From a virus: DNA of 30,133 nucleotides. The number at the start of each line of letters is the position of its first letter. Positions within the stretch are counted from its first letter, which is position 1. The notes beneath the pieces were generated by a model, which searched no databases, was not told the origin of the DNA, and was given only the letters and a program-made list of their open reading frames with translations. Location of the stretch: positions 1 through 30,133 of IMG/VR virus record IMGVR_UViG_3300024581_003098. One strand, given 5' to 3'. The position numbers were made by a program, and so were the translations under genes. Positions 1-30,133 of this stretch are shown piece by piece.

Positions 1-99
1 AAGACAAAGGGCAATTCCTTGGGATTGATCAGCTCCAAATCAATCTCATCATCAAATCCTAGAAAGAGGGTTTCAATCTGCTCATGATTGTCAATGAAA
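1..99. repeat. Terminal direct repeat, copy A (identical to 30035-30133); assembly overlap of a circular or circularly permuted genome
   Basis: Read directly: nt 1-99 and nt 30035-30133 are the same 99-nt string (aagacaaagggcaattcc...gattgtcaatgaaa), offset 30034. Confidence 0.95.
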
Positions 100-152
100 T
101 TCTTGAATTCCTTGACGAAGCTGATGAGGGTCCTGTATTCATTTGCTTGCAT
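1..152 (-). CDS. 5' end of the gene cut by the linearisation point (joins 29677-30133); ATG at 152-150
   Basis: The frame of ORF 29677-30072 stays open through the repeat and on to an in-frame ATG at 152, with an upstream stop at 207-209. The added residues MQANEYRTLISFVKEFKNFIDNHEQIETLFLGFDDEID look like real protein. The track start at 30072 is only a TTG. Confidence 0.6.
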   Translation of the reverse strand, partial: MQANEYRTLISFVKEFKNFIDNHEQIETLFLGFDDEIDLELINPKELPFV

Positions 153-285
153 CGGGCATCTTGTTTCTCTTCGATATATGAAGATCCAATTCGTAGCAAA
201 GGAATGTCAAGGCCGACCTGATATTGAGGGCCGTGATAGCCTCTATCTTGAGGATATCTCCTTGAGCCAAATGATAGAGGGTCAT
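139..285 (-). CDS. Small hypothetical protein, 48 aa (MTLYHLAQGDILKIEAITALNIRSALTFLCYELDLHISKRNKMPDASK); not in the ORF track
   Basis: Manual translation: ATG at 285-283, TGA at 141-139. Composition is more protein-like than the competing 79-aa frame (59-298). It overlaps the ATG at 152 by 14 nt. Confidence 0.3.
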   Translation of the reverse strand: MTLYHLAQGDILKIEAITALNIRSALTFLCYELDLHISKRNKMPDASK

Positions 286-305
286 ATACCACCCCCATTT
301 AGAAC

Positions 306-848
306 CTAGGTCTGAGGCTTCTCCTCCTTCAAAGATGGGAGAGAATTCTTGACGAAGCTCATCCCTAGCGACAAAAAAAAATTGAGAGAGCCTAGGACAT
401 CGGGCATCTTCATCTCCAGCATGATTTCAGAGTCCTCATGGCTGGTATATGGCTTGATTTGATAGGATTGAAAAGCCTCTTCGATGACAGGCCTGTAGAG
501 GATGGCCATAATCTTTGGCAAATTCTCAAGGGGATTCTGGCAAAGAGAATCCAAATCAACGAATTCACCGACGCTCATCTCTGACAGATTTGGATGAAAG
601 CCGTATTTCAGGCCTCTGAGCTCAATGAATCGCTTGTGCTTATACTTATCCTCATCTGTCTGCTCAATCGAGCTGAGAAGGGCCTCTAATTCAATGAGAG
701 AGCTTTTCTCCATTCGCTTGATATCCTCCTTGCTGATGTCGCAGAGAATCGCTATCTGCCCAAGGGTATCAGATGGGTCGATTTTGCCAAGCTCTAGATA
801 TTGGCCCAAATTGATATCCTCGAAGGATGTCGGGACGGTGATTTTCAT
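306..848 (-). CDS. Hypothetical protein, 180 aa, directly downstream of terL
   Basis: ATG start overlaps the terL stop (ATGA at 845-848). Acidic protein with no motif I recognise. Confidence 0.8.
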   Translation of the reverse strand: MKITVPTSFEDINLGQYLELGKIDPSDTLGQIAILCDISKEDIKRMEKSSLIELEALLSSIEQTDEDKYKHKRFIELRGLKYGFHPNLSEMSVGEFVDLDSLCQNPLENLPKIMAILYRPVIEEAFQSYQIKPYTSHEDSEIMLEMKMPDVLGSLNFFLSLGMSFVKNSLPSLKEEKPQT

Positions 849-1999
849 GCTATGAAATATTGGCCTCTTCGGTTCGTTGCTAATTTATTCAAGCAGACAT
901 ATCGGACCGCATCCATGGCATGATCATGGCCTTGATCAGGCTGATTGAGCATCCTGCCATTCTTATCCGTCTGCCATTTGTAATTCTGAATCTCCTTGAT
1001 CAGATTCAGGCTCTTCTTGTGAATATGCAGCTTGTGTCGCTTCATGATATCAATCCCTTGATTGATGCTATCTCGGCCCTTCTTGGAGGGCTTGATATTG
1101 AAGCCAAGCCGAAAAATCTCCTCAATGCTTTTGGGCTCAGCAGAATCGGCGATGATTTCAGCCCTGCCCTCAATCAAGCTCTTGAATCTTTCTCCCAAAT
1201 CCAGATTGGTCAAGCCTGTCTCGTAGAGAAGCTCCTGAAGGTATAGATGATGGCCCTTCTTGAAGACAGAGATGAGGGCTGAGGGATCATTGGTGAAGCC
1301 CCAATCAAGGCCATGAGCAATGAATTGAGCTCCCTCTGGAATTTCATCGACAAGCTCGAATCTAGGAAAGATCGCAGCCATGTTGATTCCTCTCTCTCCT
1401 AGGCCATAGACCCTCCAATAATTTTCGTCTGTCTCCTTGAGCCTCTCAATCTCTTCGATGATATTGGCTCCCAAATGAGGATTGTCCTTGTAGCTGGATT
1501 GAAAGAATGAGCAATCATCCCGCGTCAAGATGTGATCATAAATCCATGAGAAGGCATCTGAGGGGTTATAGTCCAAGATCATCAGCTCGGTCGTCCTCAT
1601 ATTGATCTGACGAAAATCCTCCAAGGTCAGATTGTTTGCCTCATTCAAAAAAGCGACCTGTCTTTTTCGGCCCTTGATTTTTGAGGGCTGGTCGACAGAT
1701 AGGAATTCGATGAGATTGCCAAAGAGCAGATACGTCGCTTGGCTCTTGTTGTGATTGGCCTCATCGTACCATCCTTCACGATCCAGGATCTCAAAAAAGT
1801 CCCTCATGACTGATGCCCTGATAGCAGGCATTGTCTTTCGGACTATCGTGAAGACCCATCCAGCATGCTGATTGGCCCAGCACCATTCAGCAATGACTTG
1901 GCAAATTGAAAATGTCTTGCCTGATCTCGTCCCTCCTTGATGGACCTGAATCCTTGTCCGCGCCCCTTTGCAATCGTAATATGTCTTGGGTTGCTTCAA
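845..1999 (-). CDS. terL: Terminase large subunit (PBSX / Terminase_3-6-like, headful type)
   Basis: Walker A GGTRSGKT at residues 22-29 and a Walker B-like VAFLNEA. Nuclease-domain motifs DWGFTNDPSA, ADSAEPKS and HDHAMDAVRY. The only start upstream of Walker A is TTG at 1999, with TAA two codons upstream. Confidence 0.93.
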   Translation of the reverse strand: MKQPKTYYDCKGARTRIQVHQGGTRSGKTFSICQVIAEWCWANQHAGWVFTIVRKTMPAIRASVMRDFFEILDREGWYDEANHNKSQATYLLFGNLIEFLSVDQPSKIKGRKRQVAFLNEANNLTLEDFRQINMRTTELMILDYNPSDAFSWIYDHILTRDDCSFFQSSYKDNPHLGANIIEEIERLKETDENYWRVYGLGERGINMAAIFPRFELVDEIPEGAQFIAHGLDWGFTNDPSALISVFKKGHHLYLQELLYETGLTNLDLGERFKSLIEGRAEIIADSAEPKSIEEIFRLGFNIKPSKKGRDSINQGIDIMKRHKLHIHKKSLNLIKEIQNYKWQTDKNGRMLNQPDQGHDHAMDAVRYVCLNKLATNRRGQYFIA

Positions 2000-2124
2000 G
2001 CCTTAGCTCGTCGAGTCAATTTCAAAAGGCCATAGCCTATCAAGGCCAGCAATGAGACATTGATGAGATTGGGATGCCAATGCTCTCCGCATAGGCCAAG
2101 GAGGTGATATAGATATTCATTCAT
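1996..2124 (-). CDS. Small ORF, 42 aa (MNEYLYHLLGLCGEHWHPNLINVSLLALIGYGLLKLTRRAKA), filling the terS-terL gap; not in the ORF track
   Basis: Translated codon by codon. ATG at 2124 overlaps the terS end by 8 nt. Its TGA (1998-1996) overlaps the TTG start of terL (TTGA). It has a hydrophobic segment, VSLLALIGYGLL. Confidence 0.4.
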   Translation of the reverse strand: MNEYLYHLLGLCGEHWHPNLINVSLLALIGYGLLKLTRRAKA

Positions 2125-2455
2125 CTTCTTCAGAATTAAACCAAGAAGGCTTTTTGTTTGGCTCATGGATTGTCATCTCTTGGCTCTCGACATAGCCCCT
2201 TCTCTTTCCTTTGGTCTTTAGAAAGAAAATGGTTGCCGCCGTATTGCCATCGGCTATTAGCTTGTGCAATCGGCTCTCAGCAAAATCCAAGGTCTGATCA
2301 TTGATATCATCGACCCTCTTCTTGAATTCAGGATCTTTCATCCATTCATAGAATTGAGATCGGCTGATGCCTGATGATCGGCATGCCGTCGTGATGACCC
2401 CAAGGGATTTCTCAAGTGCTTGGAGGAGGGCCTCCTGTTTGCTCTTATTTGCCAT
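2117..2455 (-). CDS. terS: Terminase small subunit (HTH type)
   Basis: 112 aa. N-terminal HTH (GISRSQFYEWMKD) and TIFFLKTKGKRRGY, as in small terminases. Located upstream of terL. Confidence 0.7.
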   Translation of the reverse strand: MANKSKQEALLQALEKSLGVITTACRSSGISRSQFYEWMKDPEFKKRVDDINDQTLDFAESRLHKLIADGNTAATIFFLKTKGKRRGYVESQEMTIHEPNKKPSWFNSEEDE

Positions 2456-3287
2456 TCATCGTCAAGGATAGAAATTCAGCGCGGACATCCCCATCTTGAA
2501 AGACCCCTGTCAGCTTGCTTGTCCTTGTCTTGGCATTGGGCTTCTTGACGCCCCTCATGGCCATACAAAGGTGCTCAGCCTCAAGGACGACCCCGACCCC
2601 TAGAGGATCGAGCTCTTCCATCAGGAAATCAGCAACCTGATTGGTGATGCGCTCTTGATTCTGGAATCTACGAGAATAGGTCTCCAAGGTTCGGGCCAAT
2701 TTAGAGAGGCCGACAATCCTGTCTTTTGGGATATAGGCTATATGTCCGATGCCAAAGAAGGGAGCCAAATGATGCTCACAGAGAGAATAGAAAGGGATGT
2801 TTGTTTGGACAATCATCTGATCATATCCCTCAGAGCTGAAGGTCGTCAATTTCCATTCTGGAGGGCTCAAGAATTCGCTGAGAAATTTGATATACCTCTT
2901 GGGCGTCTCTTGGAGGCCTTCACGATTGGCATCATCAAAGGATTGAATGACCCGACGCATGTGGGATTCGACATCCCGCTCAACAGATTCTTCCCATGGA
3001 AAGGATAGCCATCGGCCTGAGACATTAGGATCTGTCTGCTTATCGTAGAGGGCAACAAAAGGCTTTCCATATTTCATGACATATTCATCCCTCGTCGCCC
3101 CTGAATCAATCAAATCATCAAGGATGATATCAGCTTCCTCAGGCGTGGCCGCGATTTGCTCAGGATCAAGCATCTGAGCGATGATGGCCCCTCCTCTTGG
3201 GACCCCGTAATATTTCTGCTCAGGCTGGATGATTTCAGAGAGGCGGGCTCTAAGCTCTTGCCAAGAAAAATTCAAAGGATGTTCCAT
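2445..3287 (-). CDS. folE: Fusion protein: N-terminal Gpt-like phosphoribosyltransferase domain + GTP cyclohydrolase I (FolE)
   Basis: The first ~100 residues carry YGVPRGG and the PRPP motif DIILDDLIDSGAT, and end in WLSFPWEE as in E. coli Gpt. The remainder is FolE: ETPKRY, CEHHLAPFFG, VGLSKLAR, RFQNQERIT, EHLCMAMRGV. Confidence 0.88.
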   Translation of the reverse strand: MEHPLNFSWQELRARLSEIIQPEQKYYGVPRGGAIIAQMLDPEQIAATPEEADIILDDLIDSGATRDEYVMKYGKPFVALYDKQTDPNVSGRWLSFPWEESVERDVESHMRRVIQSFDDANREGLQETPKRYIKFLSEFLSPPEWKLTTFSSEGYDQMIVQTNIPFYSLCEHHLAPFFGIGHIAYIPKDRIVGLSKLARTLETYSRRFQNQERITNQVADFLMEELDPLGVGVVLEAEHLCMAMRGVKKPNAKTRTSKLTGVFQDGDVRAEFLSLTMNGK

Positions 3288-3871
3288 AGCTTGTGGTCTT
3301 GGATGCTGAGCCTCCAGATAGGATGATCAAGACAAAGATTCATGCAGTGCCGAATATTCTCCTCATTCGGCTCCCATCCATCAAAATGAGGGCTCAGGAA
3401 AAGATGATCAGCGGTGATGCTAGGCTCTGGAATGACTTGGCCAGCATGACGGACATATCTGAGCTCATCGACATGCGTGAAATTCTTTGCAATGACATGC
3501 TCCGCGACCTTAGGAGAAAGGCTGACAAAATCAAGCTCCTTGCTCACGGGGAATAGCCCGCTCGTCTCAATGGCCTGAAAATATCCTTTAGCATGAAAAA
3601 ATTGTACGACCTCATCGGTAATCCTATCGGCTGGCTCTCCTCCTGTCCAGATGATACTCCTGCAATTGACAGAGAGCCTTTCCATCTGCTGAAGGATCTC
3701 ATCCAAGGTCATATCTGCCCCGCTTTCAAATTCGGTGTCGCATTTAATTCCTGAGGCGAAACAGGCATGCTTGGCTTTGCATCCTTGGATGCGAATGAAA
3801 AAATTTGCGGTCCCCGTGCGGACCCCCTCTCCTTGGAGAGAATAGAAAATTTCAGAGACAGGAAGATTCAT
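3272..3871 (-). CDS. queE: 7-carboxy-7-deazaguanine synthase (radical SAM, QueE)
   Basis: MNLPVSEIFYSLQGEG, then the Cys-rich segment IRIQGCKAKHACFASGIKCDTEF, then WTGGEP. The track start at 3916 is TTG; the first ATG at 3871 gives a canonical N-terminus. Confidence 0.88.
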   Translation of the reverse strand: MNLPVSEIFYSLQGEGVRTGTANFFIRIQGCKAKHACFASGIKCDTEFESGADMTLDEILQQMERLSVNCRSIIWTGGEPADRITDEVVQFFHAKGYFQAIETSGLFPVSKELDFVSLSPKVAEHVIAKNFTHVDELRYVRHAGQVIPEPSITADHLFLSPHFDGWEPNEENIRHCMNLCLDHPIWRLSIQDHKLWNIL

Positions 3872-4283
3872 AGCTGACGGTGCTGGATTTGGTTTCGGCA
3901 AGCTCAATCTTGTCAAGCTCAGCCCTGACCCCTAGGCGTTGGCCTAGATCCTGGATGGCAAGAGAAAGCTCTTGGAAAAAATGAAAGACAAGATTCTCGG
4001 CTGATGTTTCAAATGGGAGGGCAATGAATGGCTCATTGGCCTCTCTTAAAACAGGGACCAAAGGATCATCCTCAGATAGCATGAGATGATGATCATAGCC
4101 CTTGAAATAGGGTTCACAAATTGCATCTATATCCTGAAAGAGGATGGCGACATCTTTTTGCCATTCGGGAAAGCGAAGAAAGACAGAGACCTCATAGGTG
4201 TGCCCATGCAGGCGGGAGCATTTTTCTCCAGCCATCAGATTGCGATGCCCTGCGTAGAAGTGATATTTTTTCTGAATCTTCAT
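3852..4283 (-). CDS. queD: 6-carboxy-5,6,7,8-tetrahydropterin synthase (QueD)
   Basis: YHFYAGHRN and CSRLHGHTYEV motifs. ATG at 4283 forms ATGA with the queC stop; an alternative ATG lies at 4289. The track start at 4364 lies out of frame inside queC. Confidence 0.88.
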   Translation of the reverse strand: MKIQKKYHFYAGHRNLMAGEKCSRLHGHTYEVSVFLRFPEWQKDVAILFQDIDAICEPYFKGYDHHLMLSEDDPLVPVLREANEPFIALPFETSAENLVFHFFQELSLAIQDLGQRLGVRAELDKIELAETKSSTVSYESSCL

Positions 4284-4957
4284 ACCCATCCTCTTTCCTT
4301 GGCTTGCCGATATCCCTTGGCCCTTAGGACTGAGGCTGGATTGTCCTCCTTGCCGTAGCCCCATTCATTTTCTGTCATATCCCCATTGTAATCGGTCATG
4401 GTCTTGGTCCTGATTTGCTCGATGCAATCAAGATCTCCAGCCAATTTCCACGTCTCGGCCTTATCCAAATTCATCAGAGGCGTCCAGATGCGAATCTTGC
4501 CCATGCCCATTCCAAGAAGCAGGGTCTCCTCTAGGCTATTGATTGTCTCTCTTCGACAATCTGGATAGCCTGAGAAATCGGTTTCACAGACCCCCGTGAC
4601 TATATCTCTGATGCCATGGGCTGAAGCCTTGGCGGCAACTATAGTCAAGAAAAGGATGTTTCTTGCTGGCACGAAAGAAGCTGGCAATTCAGGATTCAAA
4701 GGATGAGCCTCATTGTGATCAGAGCCATCCAAGAGCGATGAATTCCCAAGAAGCCCCTCAATATCAATAATCTCATGAGGGCAATCATTCTCAGAGGCCA
4801 ATCTCTTTGCCATCTCAATTTCGACAGAATGCTTTTGTCCATATTGAAAAGAAAAGCAGAAGACCTCATCAAATTCCTTCAGAGCCCAAAAGAGGGATGT
4901 CCCTGAATCTTGGCCTCCAGAAAGCAGGAGGGCGCATCTAGTAGTATTGTTCGGCAT
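4280..4957 (-). CDS. queC: 7-cyano-7-deazaguanine synthase-like protein (QueC family) lacking the C-terminal zinc-cysteine cluster
   Basis: PP-loop ALLLSGGQDSG, FVPARN and VTGVCETDFSGYPDCR. The C-terminus reads TDYNGDMTENEWGYGKEDNPASVLRAKGY where QueC normally has C-x8-C-x2-C-x2-C. The ATG at 4957 gives a QueC-like N-terminus. Confidence 0.88.
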   Translation of the reverse strand: MPNNTTRCALLLSGGQDSGTSLFWALKEFDEVFCFSFQYGQKHSVEIEMAKRLASENDCPHEIIDIEGLLGNSSLLDGSDHNEAHPLNPELPASFVPARNILFLTIVAAKASAHGIRDIVTGVCETDFSGYPDCRRETINSLEETLLLGMGMGKIRIWTPLMNLDKAETWKLAGDLDCIEQIRTKTMTDYNGDMTENEWGYGKEDNPASVLRAKGYRQAKERGWV

Positions 4958-5795
4958 ATTTTCCAAATTTGATCCATTCATTGAAATTGTGCATTGCGAC
5001 TTTTCGCCCGTTGATTTTTTTGCCTGCTGGCCTCTCAATCTTTCTCATATTCCTCCCATCAAAGTGATAGAGAAAGCCTCCCATATTGCCAGCCAGCCAA
5101 GCCGTCGAATCAACAGAGTCAAATTTGATTTTGGGCAGCAGCTCCAATCTGGTGAATCCTAGGCCATGGACCCTGCAATCATTTTCCTTGGCTATTTGTA
5201 TGAGCTTGACGAAGATGGGAAACTCCTCTTTTTTTATCTCTTTAGTTACGATGCCCCCAATGGCCACGAGCTCATAATCTTTGACCATCCCTTTCCAATA
5301 GTCCAGCCCTCTTGATTTATGCCAGACAGGGATGCAGGGAAATTGTGTCCTCGTCTCCAATCGCCTTCTCAGCTTTTCGACATCCTTGAGGGGCATGATT
5401 GAATCAAGGTCCAGCTCCAAAAATTGAGAGCATTGAAGCTCCTTGATAGCCTCAGAATATCTGTCGATGTATCGAGTCCAATTTGGGGCCTCCTTTTTCT
5501 GCTTATTCATAAAGGTAAAAGCTCCAGAATCCAGCATGAAGTCCTTGAAGTGCTCCCTGTGATCTCGGTAGAAGGGAATGCTCTCTTGGATGTAATAGTA
5601 GCTCTCAAGGACGTAGGGCAAATCGGTCGTCATCTGATAGCTGGGCAAGGGCTTCTCCCTTTCTTTTAGAAAGCGTCTTGCGGCCTCTTCGATGAGGAAA
5701 GGCCTGCTCCAAGTCCCGACTTGATATATCTTCATGTATTCTGTCCAAAAGGGGCGCAGATTGCCCGTGACGCCCCCTGCCATGTAGATTTTCAC
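4938..5795 (-). CDS. dpdA: DpdA-family DNA 7-deazaguanine transglycosylase (TGT-like)
   Basis: FMLDSGAFTF (TGT-like DSG Asp), RVHGLGFT and FDSVDSTAW. 285 aa, adjacent to queC. GTG at 5795 overlaps the ParB-like stop (GTGA); an alternative ATG lies at 5783. Confidence 0.78.
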   Translation of the reverse strand: MKIYMAGGVTGNLRPFWTEYMKIYQVGTWSRPFLIEEAARRFLKEREKPLPSYQMTTDLPYVLESYYYIQESIPFYRDHREHFKDFMLDSGAFTFMNKQKKEAPNWTRYIDRYSEAIKELQCSQFLELDLDSIMPLKDVEKLRRRLETRTQFPCIPVWHKSRGLDYWKGMVKDYELVAIGGIVTKEIKKEEFPIFVKLIQIAKENDCRVHGLGFTRLELLPKIKFDSVDSTAWLAGNMGGFLYHFDGRNMRKIERPAGKKINGRKVAMHNFNEWIKFGKYAEQYY

Positions 5796-6331
5796 AGGCC
5801 TAGCAATTTCATGACAATGGCTTCCCTGGATCCTTGCAATTGGCTGAAGGCCTCAATGACCTTCTCATAATCATCAGCCGAATAATCTAGGACAATTTGA
5901 GTCTTTGGAGCTTTCTCCTCATCCTCTGTGTCTTCAAAAAATTCGTCGAGATCAAGCTCAGGATTCCAAATGTCCAGACCCCAAGATTGGAGCTCTCCAG
6001 CATCATATTCATTGGCCAAGAGATCATAGTCCCAAGCCCCAAACGGCACATTGTCCTTGATGATGAATTCCTCTTTCTCCTTTTCGGTCGCTCCTTCTAT
6101 CTTTTCGACCAAGACCTCTTTGATTCCAGCCTCTTTGAGGGCTCTCAATCGCTGGTTGCCCCCTAGGACAATATTTTCCTCATCAATGACAAGGGGCCTC
6201 AATTGAAGCATCCAAGGGGCTGTCTTGATGGAATCAACAAGAAGGTGAAATTTCTCCTCGGTGATGGAACGAGGATTGTCGGGATTGGGCCGTATCTGCT
6301 CAATCTTGAGGGTCTGACGCGATATCTTCAC
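5792..6331 (-). CDS. ParB N-terminal-domain (ParB/Srx superfamily) protein with an acidic C-terminal tail
   Basis: IEQIRPNPDNPR and VLGGNQRLRALKEAGIKEV are the ParB box motifs. There is an acidic stretch, DLDEFFEDTEDEE. 179 aa. Confidence 0.8.
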   Translation of the reverse strand: MKISRQTLKIEQIRPNPDNPRSITEEKFHLLVDSIKTAPWMLQLRPLVIDEENIVLGGNQRLRALKEAGIKEVLVEKIEGATEKEKEEFIIKDNVPFGAWDYDLLANEYDAGELQSWGLDIWNPELDLDEFFEDTEDEEKAPKTQIVLDYSADDYEKVIEAFSQLQGSREAIVMKLLGL

Positions 6332-6689
6332 AGGAATTCAGATAGATGGTTTCTAATTGAGCAAAATTGTTTTTGAGGCATGATCCGCATCGAGTGAATT
6401 TGAGCTTGCGCCCTCCATATTCCCTCATCATCTGAATCATCATCTGCTGCTTGTCTAGCTCGATTCGGGGCCAATCGCGCCAATCTTTCAGATGCTCCTC
6501 ATATTCTCGACGGCCCTCAGCGTCCATGCCTTGAGCGTATGGAAAAAGCTGATTGAGCTTCTCTCGACGCTCATCGCATCCACAATCATCTCCAGCGATG
6601 GCCTTGACAATCTTCTTGATGCCCGTGGCCTCGGTTATCTTCTCGATGGTATCGCCTAGGCCCTTAGAGGATTTTGTCTTGGATTTCAT
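6300..6689 (-). CDS. Hypothetical Cys-containing protein, 129 aa
   Basis: Lys-rich N-terminus. Cys pairs DDCGCD and RCGSC plus NSC suggest metal binding. It overlaps neighbouring genes by 26 and 32 nt. Confidence 0.7.
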   Translation of the reverse strand: MKSKTKSSKGLGDTIEKITEATGIKKIVKAIAGDDCGCDERREKLNQLFPYAQGMDAEGRREYEEHLKDWRDWPRIELDKQQMMIQMMREYGGRKLKFTRCGSCLKNNFAQLETIYLNSCEDIASDPQD

Positions 6690-7173
6690 GTCTGGTTCTT
6701 TTGATAGCCTTGTAAAGGGTCGTCCTTGAGATGCCTGTTGCCCTTGCTAAAGTATTGAGAGAATGTGAATCGTAATAATAGACCTTCGTAATCATCTGGT
6801 CCATCCAATCGACCTCCTCCAGAGCTCTCTCAATGGCCTCAATCCTTTCTTCTTTCAGGATCTTATCCTCTATCCTATCAATGGCCCAAAAGATGATCTC
6901 CTCCTTGGCCTTTCGATGCCGAGCCTCATGGATGCGGTATTTGTAATGAAAGGGGCTGGTCTTGCTATTGTATTGATTGAGCATGATTCGGACAATCCAA
7001 TATCGAATCTGCTTTTTTTCAATCAGCCTGCTCAGCTTGGCCTCATCCCCCTCAAGCAAAATGAGGACCACCTCAGAAAGGAGATCCTCACAATCAGGAT
7101 AACGATTTTTCGTGATGGTCCTAGCAATGCCCTTGAGCATCTCATAATTCTCAGAGATATAGGCCCGAATCAC
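6664..7173 (-). CDS. Sigma-70/ECF-like transcription factor (putative phage sigma factor)
   Basis: Region-2-like LLSEVVLILLE...IRYWIVRIMLNQY and a region-4 HTH, LNTLARATGISRTTLYKAIKRTRHEI. The GTG start at 7173 is preceded by a TGTAGATT box. Confidence 0.5.
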   Translation of the reverse strand: MIRAYISENYEMLKGIARTITKNRYPDCEDLLSEVVLILLEGDEAKLSRLIEKKQIRYWIVRIMLNQYNSKTSPFHYKYRIHEARHRKAKEEIIFWAIDRIEDKILKEERIEAIERALEEVDWMDQMITKVYYYDSHSLNTLARATGISRTTLYKAIKRTRHEIQDKIL

Positions 7174-7178
7174 GGCCT

Positions 7179-7186
7179 ACAATCTA
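7179..7186 (-). promoter_or_regulatory. TGTAGATT box variant (TAGATTGT) 5 nt upstream of the GTG start of the sigma-like gene
   Basis: The minus strand reads GTTGTAGATTGTAGGCC-GTG. It shares the TGTAGATT octamer with the boxes at 12831, 13229 and 18927. Confidence 0.35.
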
Positions 7187-7576
7187 CAACAATTTGTTGA
7201 GTTTGGAGCGATATTCTTTGATCATTTGCTCAAGCTCTTGGTCGGTAAATTTTCTGGTTTCATTGCCCATTTTTATCAGTCGGTCGGCAGTCCCCTTGCC
7301 GTAGTAAAAATCTAGATTCAGACCAAACTGATATTGATGGCCTGAATTTTGGATGTTGCACTTCTTACATTGGGGCTTGACATTCATCTCATCCCATCGG
7401 ACCGAATACTTGGCCCGCGTCTGAAAATGGCCAGCATCGAGGCTCCTCCAATTTTTGACCTGATCACAGGTGAAACATTTGACCCAGCCTCCATGATCAG
7501 CATCCTTGAGCCTGATATATTGGCTGAAGACCTGATCCAGGCTCTTGACGATGTTGCTTCTCTTCCTTTTAGGCAT
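7184..7576 (-). CDS. ninG: NinG/Rap-like recombination protein
   Basis: LDQVFSQYIRLKDADHGGWVKCFTCDQ...LDAGHF...RWDEMNVKPQCKKCN matches the lambda NinG family pattern. Confidence 0.78.
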   Translation of the reverse strand: MPKRKRSNIVKSLDQVFSQYIRLKDADHGGWVKCFTCDQVKNWRSLDAGHFQTRAKYSVRWDEMNVKPQCKKCNIQNSGHQYQFGLNLDFYYGKGTADRLIKMGNETRKFTDQELEQMIKEYRSKLNKLL

Positions 7577-7703
7577 AGAAGGCCAAAACTAAAAGAATCA
7601 GCAAAATGATGTCCATGATTCTGATGACCTCATTGACAAAATATTCGAGGCCAATCTGAGCCATGACTACGACGATTCCTGCGATGATGATTCCTTCGGC
7701 CAT
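7569..7703 (-). CDS. Small membrane protein, 44 aa (MAEGIIIAGIVVVMAQIGL...ILLILLVLAFYA)
   Basis: Two hydrophobic segments. ATG at 7703; an alternative ATG at 7664 lies just after the upstream stop. Its end overlaps the ninG start by 8 nt. Confidence 0.35.
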   Translation of the reverse strand: MAEGIIIAGIVVVMAQIGLEYFVNEVIRIMDIILLILLVLAFYA

Positions 7704-8170
7704 ATCCCCATTTGTTGAAGCTCCTCCTTGGTTGCCAATATGGGCTTGAAAGCCTTGTCTCCTGCCTTGGCTGAGCTTCTCTGCCTCCAATGAGGCGGGT
7801 CTACGACTCGGTGCTGATTCTCCAAAAGAGGAGCTCTCATCTCTCCCTCATATTTTCTGAAAGCCTCAAGAAGGGTCCTTGTCCTGAAGGTCCCGTATAG
7901 ATTGGGCATGAGCTTGCCAGCCTTGAGCATCTTGCAGACATAGGCTATCTCTTCGATTTTGATGGCTGGAAATTCCTCAATCAGGAGATCTGTGGCATCT
8001 GCTATTTCCTCAGCCGATTGGAAAGTATTGTTGACTCCCATCTCGGCAATGAGCTTTGTGATCTCTAGATTGACCCAAGCCCATACGACAGGCCTCGATT
8101 CCTGATGCTTGAGAGCTGATCTGAGATTCGTCCCATGATCCCAGCATGATTCAACGCTGAGATTCCTCAT
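7667..8170 (-). CDS. Hypothetical protein, 167 aa
   Basis: Track ORF 7667-8470 trimmed to the first ATG (8170) after the stop of gene 8196-8930. The discarded 100 codons are S/R/K/P-rich and overlap that gene out of frame. Confidence 0.65.
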   Translation of the reverse strand: MRNLSVESCWDHGTNLRSALKHQESRPVVWAWVNLEITKLIAEMGVNNTFQSAEEIADATDLLIEEFPAIKIEEIAYVCKMLKAGKLMPNLYGTFRTRTLLEAFRKYEGEMRAPLLENQHRVVDPPHWRQRSSAKAGDKAFKPILATKEELQQMGIWPKESSSQESS

Positions 8171-8195
8171 GATATCTCGTCTTGTCACCCCCGAA

Positions 8196-8930
8196 TCATT
8201 GGCTCCATTGATGAGCGCGATTGTTGATGGTTTCAAAATCGATGATATCTGGATTGAATCCTTTTTTTCTTGCTTTGGGCTTGGGATGGATTCCTTGGTA
8301 TTGATTGGCAATGGCATCGTCAATGGCTTCAAGAGCGACCTCAAGGTCACCCTGCGATTTTTTGAATAATTGTTTGAGGGCCGTCTGCTCGGCCCGTGGA
8401 GTCTTGAAAGGCCTCTTGTGGGCTTTCCTTTCCTGTTTCCATTCTTCCCATTTTTGAGAGAATGCATCATCAGGCCATGGCATCTCTATCTGAGCTCTTT
8501 CATTTGCTTCCTTTATATCTCGGTATTGGTTGTGCGATTTGGCCTCTTGCATTTGGAGCTTATCCCTTTTCCTTTTGGCGATTTTGCTGAATCCATGTTG
8601 CGGAAGCTCCAATTCGTAGATTTTCGCGGCCTCAGCGGTGATGGTATACCATTTGGTCCTATCAAATCCCATTTGATTGTGGACCCCTGTCTCAATGGCT
8701 CCCTTCTTCTCTAGATTGCCCAGGATCCTCCGAATCTGATCGTGGCTCCAAAAGGTGAAAATCCCCTTGAAGGCCTTGACGCTATTCCAAGTCCAAATCT
8801 TGCCCGCGACCTCATTTTGCCCATTGAGGGCGTTTCGATGAATCCAATGCACGAGATGATGAAGCATGATAGCTTCATTCACCCCGTACATTTTTGCAGA
8901 TTCAGGATTGAAGTGAAAATCACCCTTCAT
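8196..8930 (-). CDS. Winged-helix DNA-binding protein, putative replication organiser
   Basis: The N-terminal region WSHDQIRRILGNLEKKGAIE...DRTKWYTIT resembles phage replisome-organiser / DnaD-type wHTH domains. The C-terminal half is basic. Function is inferred only. Confidence 0.55.
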   Translation of the reverse strand: MKGDFHFNPESAKMYGVNEAIMLHHLVHWIHRNALNGQNEVAGKIWTWNSVKAFKGIFTFWSHDQIRRILGNLEKKGAIETGVHNQMGFDRTKWYTITAEAAKIYELELPQHGFSKIAKRKRDKLQMQEAKSHNQYRDIKEANERAQIEMPWPDDAFSQKWEEWKQERKAHKRPFKTPRAEQTALKQLFKKSQGDLEVALEAIDDAIANQYQGIHPKPKARKKGFNPDIIDFETINNRAHQWSQ

Positions 8931-9174
8931 CCTTCGTCTTGGATTCTTTGAATTTGAGATAGGTCGAATGGGCGGTGATTTCAGAGAAAAGCTCTAGCTC
9001 GGTCGTATTACAATCCCTGATGATATCAATCCCATGAGCCAGCATGGGAATTGGATTCTTTTTGACCCATCGGCTCACCGTATTCTCTGAGACCTTCAGG
9101 GCCTCAGCCATCTTCTTCTGTGATCCGTATAGACGCTTCACATATTCCTTGAATTCTCCTTTCATCTCAATCAT
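8920..9174 (-). CDS. HTH DNA-binding protein (Cro/Xre-like)
   Basis: KKMAEALKVSENTVSRWVKK is a classic HTH. ATGA coupling with the upstream gene. Confidence 0.75.
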   Translation of the reverse strand: MIEMKGEFKEYVKRLYGSQKKMAEALKVSENTVSRWVKKNPIPMLAHGIDIIRDCNTTELELFSEITAHSTYLKFKESKTKDEG

Positions 9175-11472: not shown

Positions 11473-11645
11473 GCTTCTTTCATTTTGATGAAGAGGTAGG
11501 CCTCTTCGATTGATGTGCATTGTGGGGTCTTAATCTTCTGTCCATCTCTGAGATGGATTTGATTGAGCTCAGGAGCGTATGAGTGACGCTCCAGCTTTTC
11601 GACATTCCTGAGGAAGGCCTCAAAAGGGGTTCGGGGTTGTTTCAT
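11469..11645 (-). CDS. Hypothetical protein, 58 aa
   Basis: Trimmed to the ATG at 11645, which forms ATGA with the methyltransferase stop. Confidence 0.6.
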   Translation of the reverse strand: MKQPRTPFEAFLRNVEKLERHSYAPELNQIHLRDGQKIKTPQCTSIEEAYLFIKMKEA

Positions 11646-12289
11646 CCTATTAATTTGAATTCTTTTCTCTTTCCTTGGACTTGAAGGTCCGCGGCAACCA
11701 TGACGGCAAGGCATAGCTCATGAGGAATGATGCTCCTTTCATGATTTCCTTTCAGGCCTTGGGTCCCTGTCTTGGAGCCCCTAGGAGCAGCCTCATGACA
11801 GGAAGATCCAGGCCGGCACATAGGCCTTGGAATCCAGAGCCTAGAATTCGTCCAGATATCTGTCGGCTTCATTCGATTGTCTCCATATTGGCAGTAGGTC
11901 ACGGTCGCTCTTGGGAGATGAAGCATCTCAGGCCTCTTCCTCATCATCCCTCTTGGATTCTCAATGAACCAAACCTTGGGCTTCTTGACCTTGATGATTT
12001 CAAGGGTCCTGTGAAGCAATTTGAGGCCAAGCTCAGCCCCTTCAGAAATAGGCTTGCCATCTCTCCAATGATGAGATACGGCGGCAATAGAGAAGCTCGT
12101 GCAAGGAGGAGAGGCCCAAATGATATCAGCCTCAGGCAACTCTTCAATTGGGATTTCAAGAATATCTCCAACCAAATCAATTTCCCCGAATTGGGTGATG
12201 TCCGTGGAGAAGCTAGACATGCCGAGCTCATCGCAAGCCTTTCCAATGCTTCTGCTCCCCGCAAAGAGCTCAAGGACCTGATATTTCAT
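11642..12289 (-). CDS. Compact DNA (cytosine-5) methyltransferase
   Basis: Motif I LELFAGSRS, motif IV SPPCTSFS (catalytic Cys), motif VI FIENPRG, then CQYGD..KPT and a C-terminal IIPHELCLAV. Only 215 aa. Confidence 0.78.
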   Translation of the reverse strand: MKYQVLELFAGSRSIGKACDELGMSSFSTDITQFGEIDLVGDILEIPIEELPEADIIWASPPCTSFSIAAVSHHWRDGKPISEGAELGLKLLHRTLEIIKVKKPKVWFIENPRGMMRKRPEMLHLPRATVTYCQYGDNRMKPTDIWTNSRLWIPRPMCRPGSSCHEAAPRGSKTGTQGLKGNHERSIIPHELCLAVMVAADLQVQGKRKEFKLIG

Positions 12290-29680: not shown

Positions 29681-30133
29681 TGGACAGGAGCAAGACAGAG
29701 ATCATGCTGATCATTGATCTCCAATGAGAAGGTGCCCATCCATCCAATCAAATGGTCCTTGTATTTGGCATTGAAGGGCTGGAGATTGAGAGGAAGCTCA
29801 AGCGTATTCTGAAGGCTGAAGGCCGTATTTCCAGAATCGAATGCAATCCCATTCTTCATGAAATTGAAGATGTCTTTCATGATATAGAGAAGATTCTGCT
29901 GGGCGGTCATGGCCTCGATGCCTTTTGAATCCATCGGGCTTGAGCTGTAATCCTTGATGAAGATATCAGCAATGACAATCTCAAAGGAGGCCGATGTTGA
30001 GCCCTGATCAAAAATGACGTCTCCTAGGCCAAGAAAGACAAAGGGCAATTCCTTGGGATTGATCAGCTCCAAATCAATCTCATCATCAAATCCTAGAAAG
30101 AGGGTTTCAATCTGCTCATGATTGTCAATGAAA
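29677..30133 (-). CDS. Neck/virion-module protein; body of the gene that crosses the circular junction (169 aa in total with 100-152)
   Basis: The frame is open to the window end. The track's 131-aa version starts at a TTG (30072). The continuation through the repeat reaches the ATG at position 152 of copy A. Confidence 0.7.
   Translation of the reverse strand, partial: FIDNHEQIETLFLGFDDEIDLELINPKELPFVFLGLGDVIFDQGSTSASFEIVIADIFIKDYSSSPMDSKGIEAMTAQQNLLYIMKDIFNFMKNGIAFDSGNTAFSLQNTLELPLNLQPFNAKYKDHLIGWMGTFSLEINDQHDLCLAPVQ
30035..30133. repeat. Terminal direct repeat, copy B (identical to 1-99)
   Basis: Same 99-nt string as the window start. It lies inside an open minus-strand reading frame. 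Confidence 0.95.

What the first reader, a model, noticed from the sequence alone, without database searches (positions are those of the whole stretch)
2445..6331. Six-gene 7-deazaguanine DNA-modification operon (ParB-like, DpdA, QueC, QueD, QueE, PRT-FolE) placed directly upstream of the terminase genes
Seen:
- Six consecutive minus-strand genes run from 6331 down to 2445.
- They are joined by start/stop overlaps: GTGA at 5792-5795, ATGA at 4280-4283, 20 nt at the queC and queE starts, 16 nt at folE, and 11 nt into terS.
- Diagnostic motifs are readable in each product: FolE CEHHLAPF / HLCMAMRGV; QueE SLQGEG plus a Cys-rich segment; QueD HGHTYEV; QueC SGGQDSG / SGYPDCR; DpdA LDSGAF / HGLG / DSVDST.

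Established:
- FolE, QueD, QueE and QueC make preQ0 from GTP.
- DpdA-family transglycosylases swap guanine in DNA for a 7-deazaguanine base, which protects phage DNA from restriction.

Inference:
- The virion DNA carries a dPreQ0-type base.
- I see no QueF, ArcS/Gat-QueC or DpdC homologue, so preQ1, G+ or DpdC-made ADG are not predicted.
- Three components are atypical (see separate findings), so the final base is open.
Basis: partly seen in the sequence, partly recalled or inferred. Interest (0 to 1): 0.8.

Follow-up and report, generated by a model that had tools for sequence, protein, structure and literature searches.

The report
Phage 7-deazaguanine DNA-modification gene cassette
A small circular phage genome carries a complete gene set for making the guanine analogue preQ0 and swapping it into its own DNA to escape restriction enzymes; this layout is already known from mycobacteriophage Rosebush, but several of the enzymes here are unusual variants.

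Summary
Six overlapping minus-strand genes (6331 to 2445) encode a ParB-like protein, a DpdA-type transglycosylase, QueC, QueD, QueE and a fusion of a small phosphoribosyltransferase-like (PRT) domain with FolE. They run straight into terS and terL.

- **DpdA:** it models as a TGT-like barrel and is homologous to the DpdA1 enzymes of the CAjan phage group.
- **Not new:** Mycobacterium phage Rosebush has the same order (ParB-like, dpdA, queC, queD, queE, folE, terminase), and about 28% of its G is measured as dPreQ0.
- **Common:** the cassette recurs in dozens of viral contigs and prophages of many phyla.
- **ParB-like gene:** it sits directly upstream of dpdA in 126 of 134 informative loci, even where the preQ0 genes are absent. 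This points to a DpdB-like helper, but it is not a DpdB family member.
- **Variant enzymes:** QueC lacks all four zinc cysteines. QueE has a conserved C-x5-C-x6-C motif. The FolE N-terminal domain is a truncated XGPRT homologue, also found fused to the unrelated FolE2.

dPreQ0 is the likeliest base but is unproven. Verdict: new member of a known kind, moderate interest.

The parts
5792..6331 (-). ParB-like protein (179 aa): a free-standing ParBc-type N-terminal domain with NPxNPR and GGNQRLRA (GxxRxxA) motifs, plus an acidic C-terminal tail. Proposed DNA-loading or NTPase helper of DpdA.
   Evidence: Family hits: phrog_498 (N-terminal domain of DNA methyltransferases) 4e-25; phrog_620 (ParB-like) 1e-22; PF02195 at 25.3 bits, just under the 26.3 cut-off. 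In PADLOC it hits the N-terminus of MTase_II, and no DpdB model. Motifs are conserved across 62 distinct homologues. It lies directly upstream of dpdA in 66/70 viral and 60/64 genome loci.
4938..5795 (-). DpdA-type DNA guanine transglycosylase (285 aa), with LDSGAF (D89), HGLG (H210) and DSVDST (D229) invariant in the family.
   Evidence: Family hits: phrog_887 1e-40; the NCBIfam bacterial DpdA model gives only 21.6 bits. tblastn matches CAjan, Seurat and related DpdA at about 23% identity. hhalign against DpdA1 gives 99.6% probability, E 7e-24. The AF2 model has pLDDT 86.9. Foldseek top hits are TGT structures and viral DpdA proteins.
4280..4957 (-). QueC (225 aa from ATG 4957), with an intact SGGQDS PP-loop but all four canonical zinc-binding cysteines replaced.
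   Evidence: PF06508 6.6e-56; TIGR00364 scores 186.5 bits against a cut-off of 150.3. The C-terminus reads TDYNG...GKEDNPASVLR, where a canonical relative (L026) reads TCYNG...GCGECPACELR. The zinc-less form is conserved in most of about 50 distinct sequences.
3852..4283 (-). QueD (143 aa), a 6-carboxytetrahydropterin synthase with the C-x3-HGH motif (CSRLHGHTYEV).
   Evidence: PF01242 7e-19; TIGR03367 1.4e-14, below its cut-off; phrog_2389 7e-23. The motif was read.
3272..3871 (-). QueE (199 aa), a radical-SAM 7-carboxy-7-deazaguanine synthase with an unusual cluster motif G-C-x5-C-x6-C-DTEF.
   Evidence: TIGR04508 (Cx14CxxC type) 5e-30, at 104.9 bits against a cut-off of 240. The best solved relative is B. 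multivorans QueE 4njg, 8e-20. The motif is strictly conserved in 26 distinct homologues plus the window; sister cassettes carry CxxxCxxC or C-x3-C-x19-C instead.
2982..3287 (-). N-terminal mini-PRT domain of the FolE fusion (about residues 1-102): a truncated XGPRT (Gpt) homologue that keeps PRGG, DDLIDSGAT, K83 and W93..FPWE but lacks the central segment of about 30 residues.
   Evidence: The window sequence has no Pfam hit. The family profile hits XGPRT structures 6kp5 and 1a95 at 4e-8. A stand-alone relative (L038 9508-9834) hits PF00156 above its cut-off. The family has 433 representative clusters at E<=0.001; in the 150 listed, the domain starts within about 90 residues of the N-terminus in all single-stretch matches. 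It is also fused to FolE2.
2445..2981 (-). FolE domain (about residues 103-280): GTP cyclohydrolase IA with zinc and catalytic residues CEHH and HLCM.
   Evidence: PF01227 3.8e-59; TIGR00063 scores 184.3 bits against a cut-off of 181.6. In the AF2 model (pLDDT 91.4), Foldseek aligns about 175-190 columns, the FolE part, to GCH-I structures at E 2e-20.
2117..2455 (-). Small terminase subunit; its start overlaps the folE stop by 11 nt.
   Evidence: PHROG terminase small-subunit families at 1.5e-6 to 6e-5; HTH domains in Pfam.
845..1999 (-). Large terminase subunit.
   Evidence: TIGR01547 1.8e-44; PF04466 and PF17288.

Best explanation
This is a phage module that modifies the phage's own DNA with a 7-deazaguanine base. 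It is expressed as part of the unidirectional late region, just ahead of the packaging genes.

**Proposed pathway**
- FolE, QueD, QueE and QueC convert GTP to preQ0 through H2NTP, CPH4, CDG and ADG. This is the established pathway.
- DpdA, a TGT-fold enzyme, then exchanges guanines in duplex phage DNA for preQ0 after replication.
- The packaged genome therefore carries dPreQ0 at a DpdA-specific motif and resists many restriction enzymes. This is known for CAjan and for Rosebush, which has the same gene order.

**Proposed accessory roles**
- The translationally coupled ParB-like protein is proposed to be DpdA's DNA-loading or NTP-dependent helper. This would parallel the ParB-fold ATPase DpdB in bacteria, although the protein is not a DpdB homologue at family level.
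- The truncated XGPRT-like domain on FolE is proposed to bind or salvage guanine with PRPP. That would feed the guanine excised by DpdA back towards GTP.

**What is shown and what is inferred**
- Shown here: gene content, folds, homology, synteny and co-occurrence.
- Inferred: activity on DNA, the identity of the base, and the roles of the ParB-like protein and the PRT domain.
For: **Enzyme identities**
- DpdA has a TGT fold.
- DpdA is homologous to DpdA1 and to Rosebush gp2 (96% probability).

**Match to Rosebush**
- Rosebush gp1-gp7 is ParB-like, DpdA, QueC, QueD, QueE, FolE, terminase.
- Its DNA has about 28% of G as dPreQ0. Deleting dpdA in CAjan abolishes the modification (PMC6884629).

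**No tailoring enzymes**
- No amidotransferase, QueF or DpdC homologue was found elsewhere in the roughly 30-kb circular genome.

**Cassette conservation**
- The cassette is conserved in IMG/VR contigs: all four preQ0 genes are present in 49/63 loci.
- terL lies 0.3-1.7 kb after folE in 30 loci.

**ParB-like partner**
- The ParB-like gene is adjacent to dpdA in 66/70 viral and 60/64 genome loci. Only about half of the genome loci carry preQ0 genes.
- phiFN37 carries ParB, DpdA, a DpdC-like DUF6884 gene and YhhQ in a row.
- Bacterial DpdB is a ParB-fold ATPase required by DpdA (PMC10164549).

**PRT domain**
- The domain is linked to both non-homologous GTP cyclohydrolase I types.
- It keeps the PRPP-binding motifs and the motifs aligned to XGPRT.
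Against: - There is no chemical evidence for this phage.
- QueC lacks its zinc site, and QueE has an untested Cys spacing and scores below every NCBIfam QueE cut-off. The pathway could therefore stop at CDG or ADG, or run poorly.
- Only about 23% identity links this DpdA to any tested DpdA. Its substrate and target motif are unknown.
- The ParB-like protein does not match DpdB models. It resembles the ParBc domains of methyltransferases, whose function is itself unknown (PMC12783734).
- ParB-like genes are also common next to terminases, so a packaging role is not excluded.
- The mini-PRT lacks the segment of about 30 residues that includes the flexible catalytic loop in XGPRT (my recollection of the XGPRT structures). 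It may only bind a ligand.
Confidence: 0.8

Rival explanations
1. The module does modify phage DNA, but the final base is not preQ0. The zinc-less QueC, or the DpdA specificity, leads to dADG or dCDG, as in other phage systems where the inserted base differs from prediction.
For: - All four QueC zinc ligands are replaced, and this form is conserved.
- The QueE motif is non-canonical.
- Cui et al. 2023 show that DpdA subfamilies insert different bases and that gene content has mispredicted products (PMC10516641).
- This DpdA shares only about 23% identity with any tested enzyme.
Against: - The QueC PP-loop and the overall profile match are intact, above the TIGR00364 equivalog cut-off.
- Rosebush and CAjan, with the same minimal gene set, carry dPreQ0.
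- There is no DpdC or DUF6884 gene here, unlike phiFN37.
Confidence: 0.2
2. The genes are auxiliary metabolic genes that raise the host's queuosine-tRNA precursor supply, and the TGT-like protein acts on tRNA rather than on DNA.
For: - The fold is the same as tRNA-guanine transglycosylases.
- PHROG annotates the family as 'queuine tRNA-ribosyltransferase'.
Against: - No QueF, QueA, QueG or QueH is present.
- The protein does not match the Pfam TGT model. It is homologous to DpdA1, whose deletion in CAjan removes the DNA modification, and phage 9g dpdA does not complement E. coli tgt (PMC6884629).
- Its obligate neighbour is a ParB-type DNA-binding domain.
- It is co-located with the packaging genes.
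Confidence: 0.04
3. The ParB-like gene is a packaging or partition accessory of the terminase region. It is only syntenic with dpdA and is not its functional partner.
For: - ParB-like genes lie at genome starts next to terminases in several phages, for example Lactobacillus phage c5 and Vibrio phage X29.
- The whole cassette sits beside terS and terL.
Against: - In this window the ParB-like gene is separated from terS by five genes.
- Its stop overlaps the dpdA start.
- Adjacency to dpdA persists in 60/64 genome loci, including those with no preQ0 genes, and in phiFN37.
Confidence: 0.15
4. The mini-PRT domain converts preQ0 (or CDG) plus PRPP to a nucleotide, as ToyH does in toyocamycin biosynthesis (my recollection). 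This would give a pre-replicative route by way of a modified dNTP.
For: - The domain is an XGPRT homologue with an intact PRPP motif and the aligned base-stacking Trp and Lys.
- It is tied to 7-deazaguanine clusters.
Against: - The fusion partner is always the first enzyme (FolE or FolE2), not the last.
- DpdA is present in these cassettes.
- No DNA polymerase or nucleotide kinase was detected in this 30-kb genome.
- Cui et al. conclude that all known cases are post-replicative.
Confidence: 0.05

Closest known systems
Mycobacterium phage Rosebush (Rosebushvirus, subcluster B2) gp1-gp6 deazaguanine cassette
   Same: - The gene order and placement are identical: ParB-like gp1, DpdA, QueC, QueD, QueE, FolE, then the terminase, with overlapping junctions.
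- There is no amidotransferase.
- The product has been measured as dPreQ0 at about 28% of G.
- The CRB2 paper already suggested that ORF1 is a dpdB-like ParB-superfamily gene.
   Different: - The proteins are very divergent: DpdA family profile versus Rosebush gp2 gives 96% probability at E 5e-9; ParB-like versus gp1 gives BLASTP E 0.2.
- Rosebush DpdA is 385 aa, against 285 aa here.
- Rosebush QueE has the canonical CNLSCSWC motif.
- Rosebush FolE is unfused.
- The host and genome type differ: a 67-kb actinophage against a 30-kb circular contig.
Queuovirinae (CAjan, Seurat, 9g, PaMx25, iggy) DpdA1 clusters
   Same: - They have the same five enzymatic functions.
- DpdA1 is the closest experimentally tested subfamily.
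- The mini-PRT-FolE fusion is also present in PaMx25/NP1-type, VpKK5 and Stenotrophomonas phages.
   Different: - The gene order is queE-queC-queD-folE-dpdA, next to the clamp and DNA polymerase.
- There is no ParB-like neighbour.
- The QueE type differs.
Bacterial Dpd system modification core (DpdA/DpdB/DpdC)
   Same: - A TGT-fold DpdA is paired with a ParB-fold protein.
- In Salmonella the ParB-fold DpdB is an ATPase required for preQ0 insertion (PMC10164549).
   Different: - This DpdA scores 21.6 bits against a cut-off of 200 for the bacterial DpdA model.
- The ParB-like protein is 179 aa. It matches the ParBc domain of methyltransferases, not the DpdB/DndB type, and carries GGNQR rather than DGQQR.
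- There is no DpdC and there are no restriction components.
E. coli XGPRT (Gpt), PDB 1A95 / 6KP5
   Same: The FolE N-terminal domain aligns at the PRGG loop, the DDLVDTGGT PRPP motif, FxxxxxK, and W-I-E-x-PW-D/E.
   Different: - About 30 residues are missing between the PRGG helix and the PRPP motif, and about 9 more before the WxxFPWE motif.
- The domain is only about 100 aa and is mostly fused to a GTP cyclohydrolase.

Membership tests
Phage 7-deazaguanine DNA-modification cluster, 'group 2' of Hutinet et al. 2019 (predicted dPreQ0) | Encodes a DpdA-family transglycosylase. | tested here: met
   phrog_887 1e-40. hhalign against DpdA1 gives 99.6% probability. The model has a TGT fold.
Phage 7-deazaguanine DNA-modification cluster, 'group 2' of Hutinet et al. 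2019 (predicted dPreQ0) | Encodes FolE, QueD, QueE and QueC. | tested here: met
   QueC and FolE pass the NCBIfam equivalog cut-offs. QueD and QueE pass only Pfam or PHROG level, or match PDB relatives.
Phage 7-deazaguanine DNA-modification cluster, 'group 2' of Hutinet et al. 2019 (predicted dPreQ0) | No amidotransferase or reductase (Gat-QueC, ArcS, QueF or QueF-L) and no DpdC. | tested here: met
   QueC is 225 aa with no Gat domain. No such family was found in the other ORFs of at least 90 aa of the circular genome. The weak QueF hit lies within FolE (residues 178-233); I read it as a cross-match within the shared tunnelling fold, from my own knowledge.
Phage 7-deazaguanine DNA-modification cluster, 'group 2' of Hutinet et al. 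2019 (predicted dPreQ0) | dPreQ0 is present in virion DNA. | not testable with these tools
   This needs LC-MS/MS or nanopore data.
TGT/DpdA superfamily | TIM-barrel TGT fold with the conserved Asp-containing motifs (LDSGAF and DSxxS). | tested here: met
   The top 18 Foldseek PDB hits are all TGTs. D89 and D229 are invariant in 42 sequences. They align to FLDSGAFS and CDSSSW of DpdA1.
Bacterial DpdA (NCBIfam NF041059 equivalog) | Scores above the curated cut-off of 200 bits. | tested here: not met
   21.6 bits over residues 174-234 only. PADLOC DpdA gives 1.4e-5 over the same stretch.
DpdB (ParB/DndB-type ATPase partner of bacterial DpdA) | Sequence membership: a DpdB/DndB-type ParB domain with the DGQQR motif plus a C-terminal helical domain (44 kDa monomer including the His tag). 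| tested here: not met
   No DpdB model was hit in NCBIfam or PADLOC. The protein is 179 aa. Its motif is GGNQRLRA. The best matches are ParBc domains of methyltransferases.
DpdB (ParB/DndB-type ATPase partner of bacterial DpdA) | Genomic coupling to dpdA. | tested here: met
   The two genes share a 4-nt overlap. They are adjacent in 66/70 and 60/64 loci.
DpdB (ParB/DndB-type ATPase partner of bacterial DpdA) | NTPase activity required for base exchange. | not testable with these tools
   This needs a biochemical assay.
ParB N-terminal domain (PF02195) | Passes the Pfam gathering score; GxxRxxA motif present. | tested here: inconclusive
   25.3 bits against a cut-off of 26.3. PHROG ParB-like families hit at 1e-22. 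G and R of the GxxR motif are at least 90% conserved, and the A at least 60%.
QueE (radical-SAM CDG synthase) | Three-Cys [4Fe-4S] motif (CxxxCxxC, or Cx14CxxC in the Burkholderia type). | tested here: not met
   The spacing is C-x5-C-x6-C. Three cysteines are still present and strictly conserved, so cluster binding is plausible but in a new register.
QueE (radical-SAM CDG synthase) | Scores above the NCBIfam equivalog cut-off. | tested here: not met
   The best is TIGR04508 at 104.9 bits against a cut-off of 240. It is homologous to solved QueE 4njg at 8e-20 over the full length.
QueC (7-cyano-7-deazaguanine synthase) | Equivalog score and SGGxDS PP-loop. | tested here: met
   TIGR00364 scores 186.5 against a cut-off of 150.3. 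SGGQDS was read.
QueC (7-cyano-7-deazaguanine synthase) | C-terminal four-Cys zinc site. | tested here: not met
   All four positions are non-Cys (D, K, N, S) when aligned to the canonical relative L026.
Type I phosphoribosyltransferase (PF00156 / XGPRT) | PRPP-binding acidic motif followed by the xTGxT loop, and a PPi loop. | tested here: met
   D57, D58, D61, S62, G63 and T65, and R31, G32 and G33, are invariant. The family profile hits XGPRT at 4e-8. A stand-alone relative passes PF00156.
Type I phosphoribosyltransferase (PF00156 / XGPRT) | Complete core, including the flexible catalytic loop. | tested here: not met
   About 30 residues of XGPRT (roughly 49-81) have no counterpart. The window sequence itself has no Pfam hit.

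The most novel reading that the evidence does not exclude
This widespread DpdA clade may work as an obligate two-component enzyme with a small ParBc-type NTP-dependent DNA clamp. That clamp would be a phage counterpart of DpdB recruited independently from the methyltransferase-associated ParBc lineage. In addition, the truncated XGPRT domain fused to FolE or FolE2 may capture the guanine excised by DpdA and return it to the GTP pool. Together these would close a guanine-to-preQ0 recycling loop that has not been described for any 7-deazaguanine system. The zinc-less QueC and the C-x5-C-x6-C QueE would then be functional minimal variants that extend the known sequence space of both enzymes.
Probability: 0.25. 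Interest if true: 0.6.

Novelty: new member of a known kind. Interest (0 to 1): 0.4.

Why it matters
**What it adds**
- 7-Deazaguanine DNA modification is a major phage counter-defence against restriction and some CRISPR nucleases.
- This contig adds one more carrier. It also shows that the Rosebush-type cassette is far more widespread than cultured phages suggest. Over 4,200 protein clusters matched the DpdA query at E<=0.001. Relatives occur in prophages of gut Bacteroidales, Clostridia, Collinsella, Staphylococcus and others.

**Testable leads**
1. A near-invariant ParB-like partner could explain why some phage DpdAs fail in heterologous tests.
2. A guanine-PRT-like domain is tied specifically to the GTP cyclohydrolase step, and it is mis-annotated in PaMx25.
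3. QueC and QueE variants lack features that were thought to define those enzymes.

Tried and rejected
- **Megablast of the window against phage records:** no match.
- **phmmer of DpdA against PDB sequences:** only noise, such as TRAP1 and Vps4. Fold comparison was needed.
- **phmmer of the ParB-like protein against PDB:** dominated by spurious designed armadillo repeats. True ParB/Spo0J hits were only 1e-3.
- **phmmer of the single FolE N-terminal domain against PDB:** only E about 0.7 to XGPRT. A family profile was needed.
- **Foldseek of the whole PRT-FolE model:** the listed top 50 hits were all GTP cyclohydrolase I structures, so it gave no information on the N-terminal domain.
- **Pfam on BCD7's 757-aa DpdA-containing protein:** nothing found.
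- **Exact look-up of the public gene call P0001:** no record, so the sample of origin is unknown.
- **Sigma-70 promoter and terminator scan:** no enrichment, so operon boundaries cannot be set.
- **Literature searches** for a PRT-FolE fusion or a phage ParB-DpdA partnership: only the one-line CRB2 suggestion.
- **DpdA2, DpdA3 and DpdA4:** I did not fetch these sequences for a formal phylogeny. Placement rests on tblastn, hhalign and Foldseek only.

Full report
**1. Observation**

The window is a complete circular contig. It has a 99-bp exact terminal overlap, giving a genome of about 30,034 bp. Every ORF assigned here lies on the minus strand.

I read every junction on the reverse strand:
- GTGA at 5795-5792 (ParB stop, DpdA start).
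- A 20-nt overlap at the QueC ATG (4957).
- ATGA at 4283-4280 (QueC stop, QueD start).
- A 20-nt overlap at the QueE ATG (3871).
- A 16-nt overlap at the FolE ATG (3287).
- An 11-nt overlap at the terS ATG (2455).

All quoted motifs are present. The block is not a delimited operon. The gene upstream (6300-6689) overlaps the ParB start by 32 nt, and the tight one-directional array continues on both sides. Consensus promoter and terminator scans show no enrichment.

**2. Identity of the parts**

| Part | Evidence |
|---|---|
| QueC | PF06508 6.6e-56; TIGR00364 above cut-off |
| FolE domain | PF01227 3.8e-59; TIGR00063 above cut-off |
| QueD | PTPS 7e-19, with the C-x3-HGH motif |
| QueE | TIGR04508 5e-30; B. 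multivorans QueE 4njg 8e-20 over full length |
| DpdA | No Pfam hit and only 21.6 bits to the bacterial DpdA model; phrog_887 1e-40 |

Further evidence for DpdA:
- tblastn matches the CAjan, Seurat and related 7-deazaguanine-inserting enzymes at about 23% identity over more than 90% of the length.
- A 42-sequence family alignment has D89, D229 and H210-G-L-G213 invariant.
- The alignment gives a confident AlphaFold model, pLDDT 86.9.
- The model's top solved-structure matches are all tRNA-guanine transglycosylases. Its top viral matches are phage queuine tRNA-ribosyltransferases, including nt-1 DpdA2 further down the list.
- Profile-profile comparison with DpdA1 (CAjan, PaMx25 and a Stenotrophomonas phage) gives 99.6% probability, E 7e-24, with all motif blocks in register.

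**3. The rest of the genome**

The other ORFs of at least 90 aa include:
- a portal, a protease, a tape-measure-like protein and an amidase;
- a replication initiator, NinG and a sigma-like regulator;
- a Metallophos exonuclease and a short C5-methyltransferase-like gene.

None is a QueF, ArcS, Gat, DpdC/DUF328/DUF6884, or a DpdL, DpdM or DpdN candidate. The gene set is therefore Hutinet's 'group 2'. [quoted passage not shown]

**4. It is a known arrangement**

- PMC10484667 notes that rosebushviruses carry dpdA, queC, queD, queE and folE in that order, directly upstream of the terminase.
- I fetched Rosebush 1-9000. gp1 to gp7 have exactly this layout, with overlapping junctions.
- My HMMs built from this window's family recognise gp1 as the ParB-like protein (E 2e-6, aligned across the NPR and GN..L.A motifs). 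They also recognise gp2 to gp6 as DpdA, QueC, QueD, QueE and FolE. hhalign of the DpdA family against gp2 gives 96% probability.
- Rosebush DNA has 96,530 dPreQ0 per 10^6 nt, about 28% of G.

The finding is therefore a new, very divergent member of a described kind.

**5. How common, and what is the conserved core**

- The DpdA query returned over 4,200 protein clusters at E<=0.001.
- Among 83 loci (3 metagenome contigs and 80 IMG/VR contigs, not all independent), a ParB-like ORF lies directly upstream on the same strand in 66 of the 70 with enough upstream DNA.
- All four preQ0 genes are detectable in 49 of 63 loci.
- terL follows folE within 0.3-1.7 kb in 30 loci.
- In the collection of one genome per species, the clade occurs in prophage-like regions of Bacteroidales, Clostridia, Collinsella, Synergistaceae, Staphylococcus intermedius, Enterococcus and others.
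- There, ParB-like is adjacent to dpdA in 60 of 64 loci, but only about half (21-23 of 44) carry preQ0 genes.

The ParB-like/DpdA pair, not the whole cassette, is the invariant unit.

Fusobacterium phage phiFN37 shows ParB-like, DpdA, DUF6884 and a YhhQ-type transporter in a row. DUF6884 hits DpdC models at 7e-9. This mirrors bacterial DpdB/A/C. Queuovirinae clusters (CAjan, PaMx25) have no ParB-like neighbour and sit by the polymerase.

**6. What the ParB-like protein is**

- It is not a DpdB family member. It has no NCBIfam or PADLOC DpdB hit. It is 179 aa, against a DpdB monomer of 44 kDa (His tag included).
- Its best matches are the N-terminal ParBc domains of phage and type II DNA methyltransferases (phrog_498 4e-25; PADLOC MTase_II).
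- NPxNPR, G-G-N-x-R-L (GxxRxxA) and a DN..G.WD..L block are conserved in 62 distinct homologues.
- In bacteria, the ParB-fold DpdB is an ATPase without which DpdA does not exchange bases (PMC10164549).
- ParBc domains recur beside other phage DNA-modifying enzymes, with unknown role (PMC12783734).

I infer a DNA-loading or NTP-dependent helper role: it works like DpdB but is not a member of that family. A packaging role is the rival.

**7. Atypical enzymes**

*(a) QueE.* The cluster motif is G-C-x5-C-x6-C-DTEF. It is strictly conserved in 26 distinct homologues plus the window. Sister cassettes carry canonical CNLxCxFCDT or C-x3-C-x19-CDT. The first and last Cys align with those of the Burkholderia Cx14CxxC enzyme, and only the middle ligand has moved.

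*(b) QueC.* All four zinc-ligand positions are non-Cys: TDYNG...GKEDNPASVLR, against TCYNG...GCGECPACELR in L026. This form is conserved in most of about 50 distinct sequences.

*(c) FolE N-terminal domain.*
- Residues 1 to about 102 have no Pfam hit.
- G28, R31-G-G33, D57-D58, D61-S-G63, T65, F77, W93, W98 and E99 are invariant in 43 fused homologues.
- A family profile hits XGPRT structures at 4e-8. It aligns the PRPP motif, F....K and W.E.PW(D/E).
- A stand-alone 109-aa relative passes PF00156.
- About 30 residues of XGPRT between the PRGG helix and the PRPP motif are absent. That these include the catalytic flexible loop is my recollection, not a test.
- The domain family has 433 representative clusters at E<=0.001. 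In the 150 listed, the domain starts within about 90 residues of the N-terminus in all single-stretch matches.
- It is fused to FolE, including intein-containing FolEs. In P0301 it is fused to the non-homologous FolE2/GCHY-1. This Rosetta-stone type link ties it to the GTP cyclohydrolase step.
- The fusion is also present in cultured phages (Stenotrophomonas gp47, VpKK5, the NP1 and PaMx25 groups).
- In PaMx25 a 297-aa ORF encodes it, but RefSeq splits the region into an out-of-frame 'gp38' and a 191-aa folE.
- In this clade 24 of 57 FolEs are fused, and 2 loci carry the domain as a separate gene.

My preferred reading is guanine (plus PRPP) capture or salvage upstream of GTP. A purely regulatory ligand-binding role is equally compatible with the data.

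**8. Mechanism and confidence**

| Claim | Confidence |
|---|---|
| This is a DNA 7-deazaguanine modification module acting by post-replicative base exchange | about 0.8 |
| dPreQ0 is the final base | about 0.6 |
| The ParB-like protein is a DpdA helper | about 0.6 |
| The mini-PRT salvages guanine | about 0.3 |

The confidence for dPreQ0 is lower because of the QueC and QueE variants and the precedents of mispredicted bases. None of these can be settled without chemistry.

**9. Verdict**

Novelty is 'new member of a known kind'. The value lies in three points:
- the comparative result that ParB-like/DpdA is a near-invariant pair across more than 120 loci;
- the recognition of the XGPRT-derived domain;
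- the two enzyme variants.

Interest is 0.4.

Noticed in passing
window 1-99 and 30035-30133: There is an exact 99-bp terminal direct overlap. The contig is a circular (or circularly permuted) complete genome of about 30,034 bp, and every ORF assigned here is on the minus strand.
   Followed up: yes
window 11642-12289 (-): A short (215 aa) C5-cytosine DNA-methyltransferase-like gene (phrog_757 3.5e-35; PF00145 covers only about positions 47-118 of 324). It may be a second DNA modification, or it may be a truncated methyltransferase.
   Followed up: partly
window 6664-7173 (-) and 6300-6689 (-): A sigma-factor-like HTH protein (phrog_1740 1e-9) and a small Cys-containing protein (phrog_32048). 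They lie immediately upstream of, and overlap into, the ParB-like gene. They may be a late regulator of the modification and packaging block.
   Followed up: no
window 5735-5795 (-), DpdA residues 1-27: The DpdA N-terminus repeats the motif MKIY(M/Q)(A/V)G twice (three times in the family consensus MxIYLAGG...MKIYLAG...MKLYLAG). DpdA1 aligns from the second copy. This may be a duplicated first strand or alternative starts.
   Followed up: partly
L001 5899-6792 (Pseudomonas phage PaMx25, NC_041953): A 297-aa ORF encodes the mini-PRT-FolE fusion. The RefSeq annotation splits the region into an out-of-frame hypothetical gp38 and a 191-aa folE.
   Followed up: yes
proteins P0294, P0328, P0301: Some PRT-FolE fusions carry an intein (one with an HNH endonuclease) inside FolE. 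P0301 fuses the same mini-PRT domain to FolE2 (GCHY-1) instead of FolE.
   Followed up: partly
L002 7811-8245 (Fusobacterium phage phiFN37): The gene after dpdA is DUF6884, with similarity to DpdC/YaaA (PADLOC DpdC 7e-9), and it is followed by a YhhQ-type transporter. This is a ParB-like/DpdA/DpdC-like trio that predicts dADG made from salvaged preQ0.
   Followed up: partly
L088 3881-6154 (Bacillus phage BCD7 gp021): The DpdA homology covers only about residues 40-253 of a 757-aa protein. The remaining roughly 500 residues have no Pfam match.
   Followed up: partly
L005 9510-10013: A sister cassette carries a Vut_1/YhhQ-family transporter gene between queC and queD, so it has both synthesis and salvage.
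   Followed up: no
loci L009-L012, L023, L026, L041-L045, L055, L066-L068, L077: A third QueE type in sister cassettes has the spacing GCNLxCGG...(19)...RCDT (C-x3-C-x19-C). L007 has C-x3-C-x6-C. The middle or last ligand spacing of phage QueEs is remarkably plastic.
   Followed up: partly
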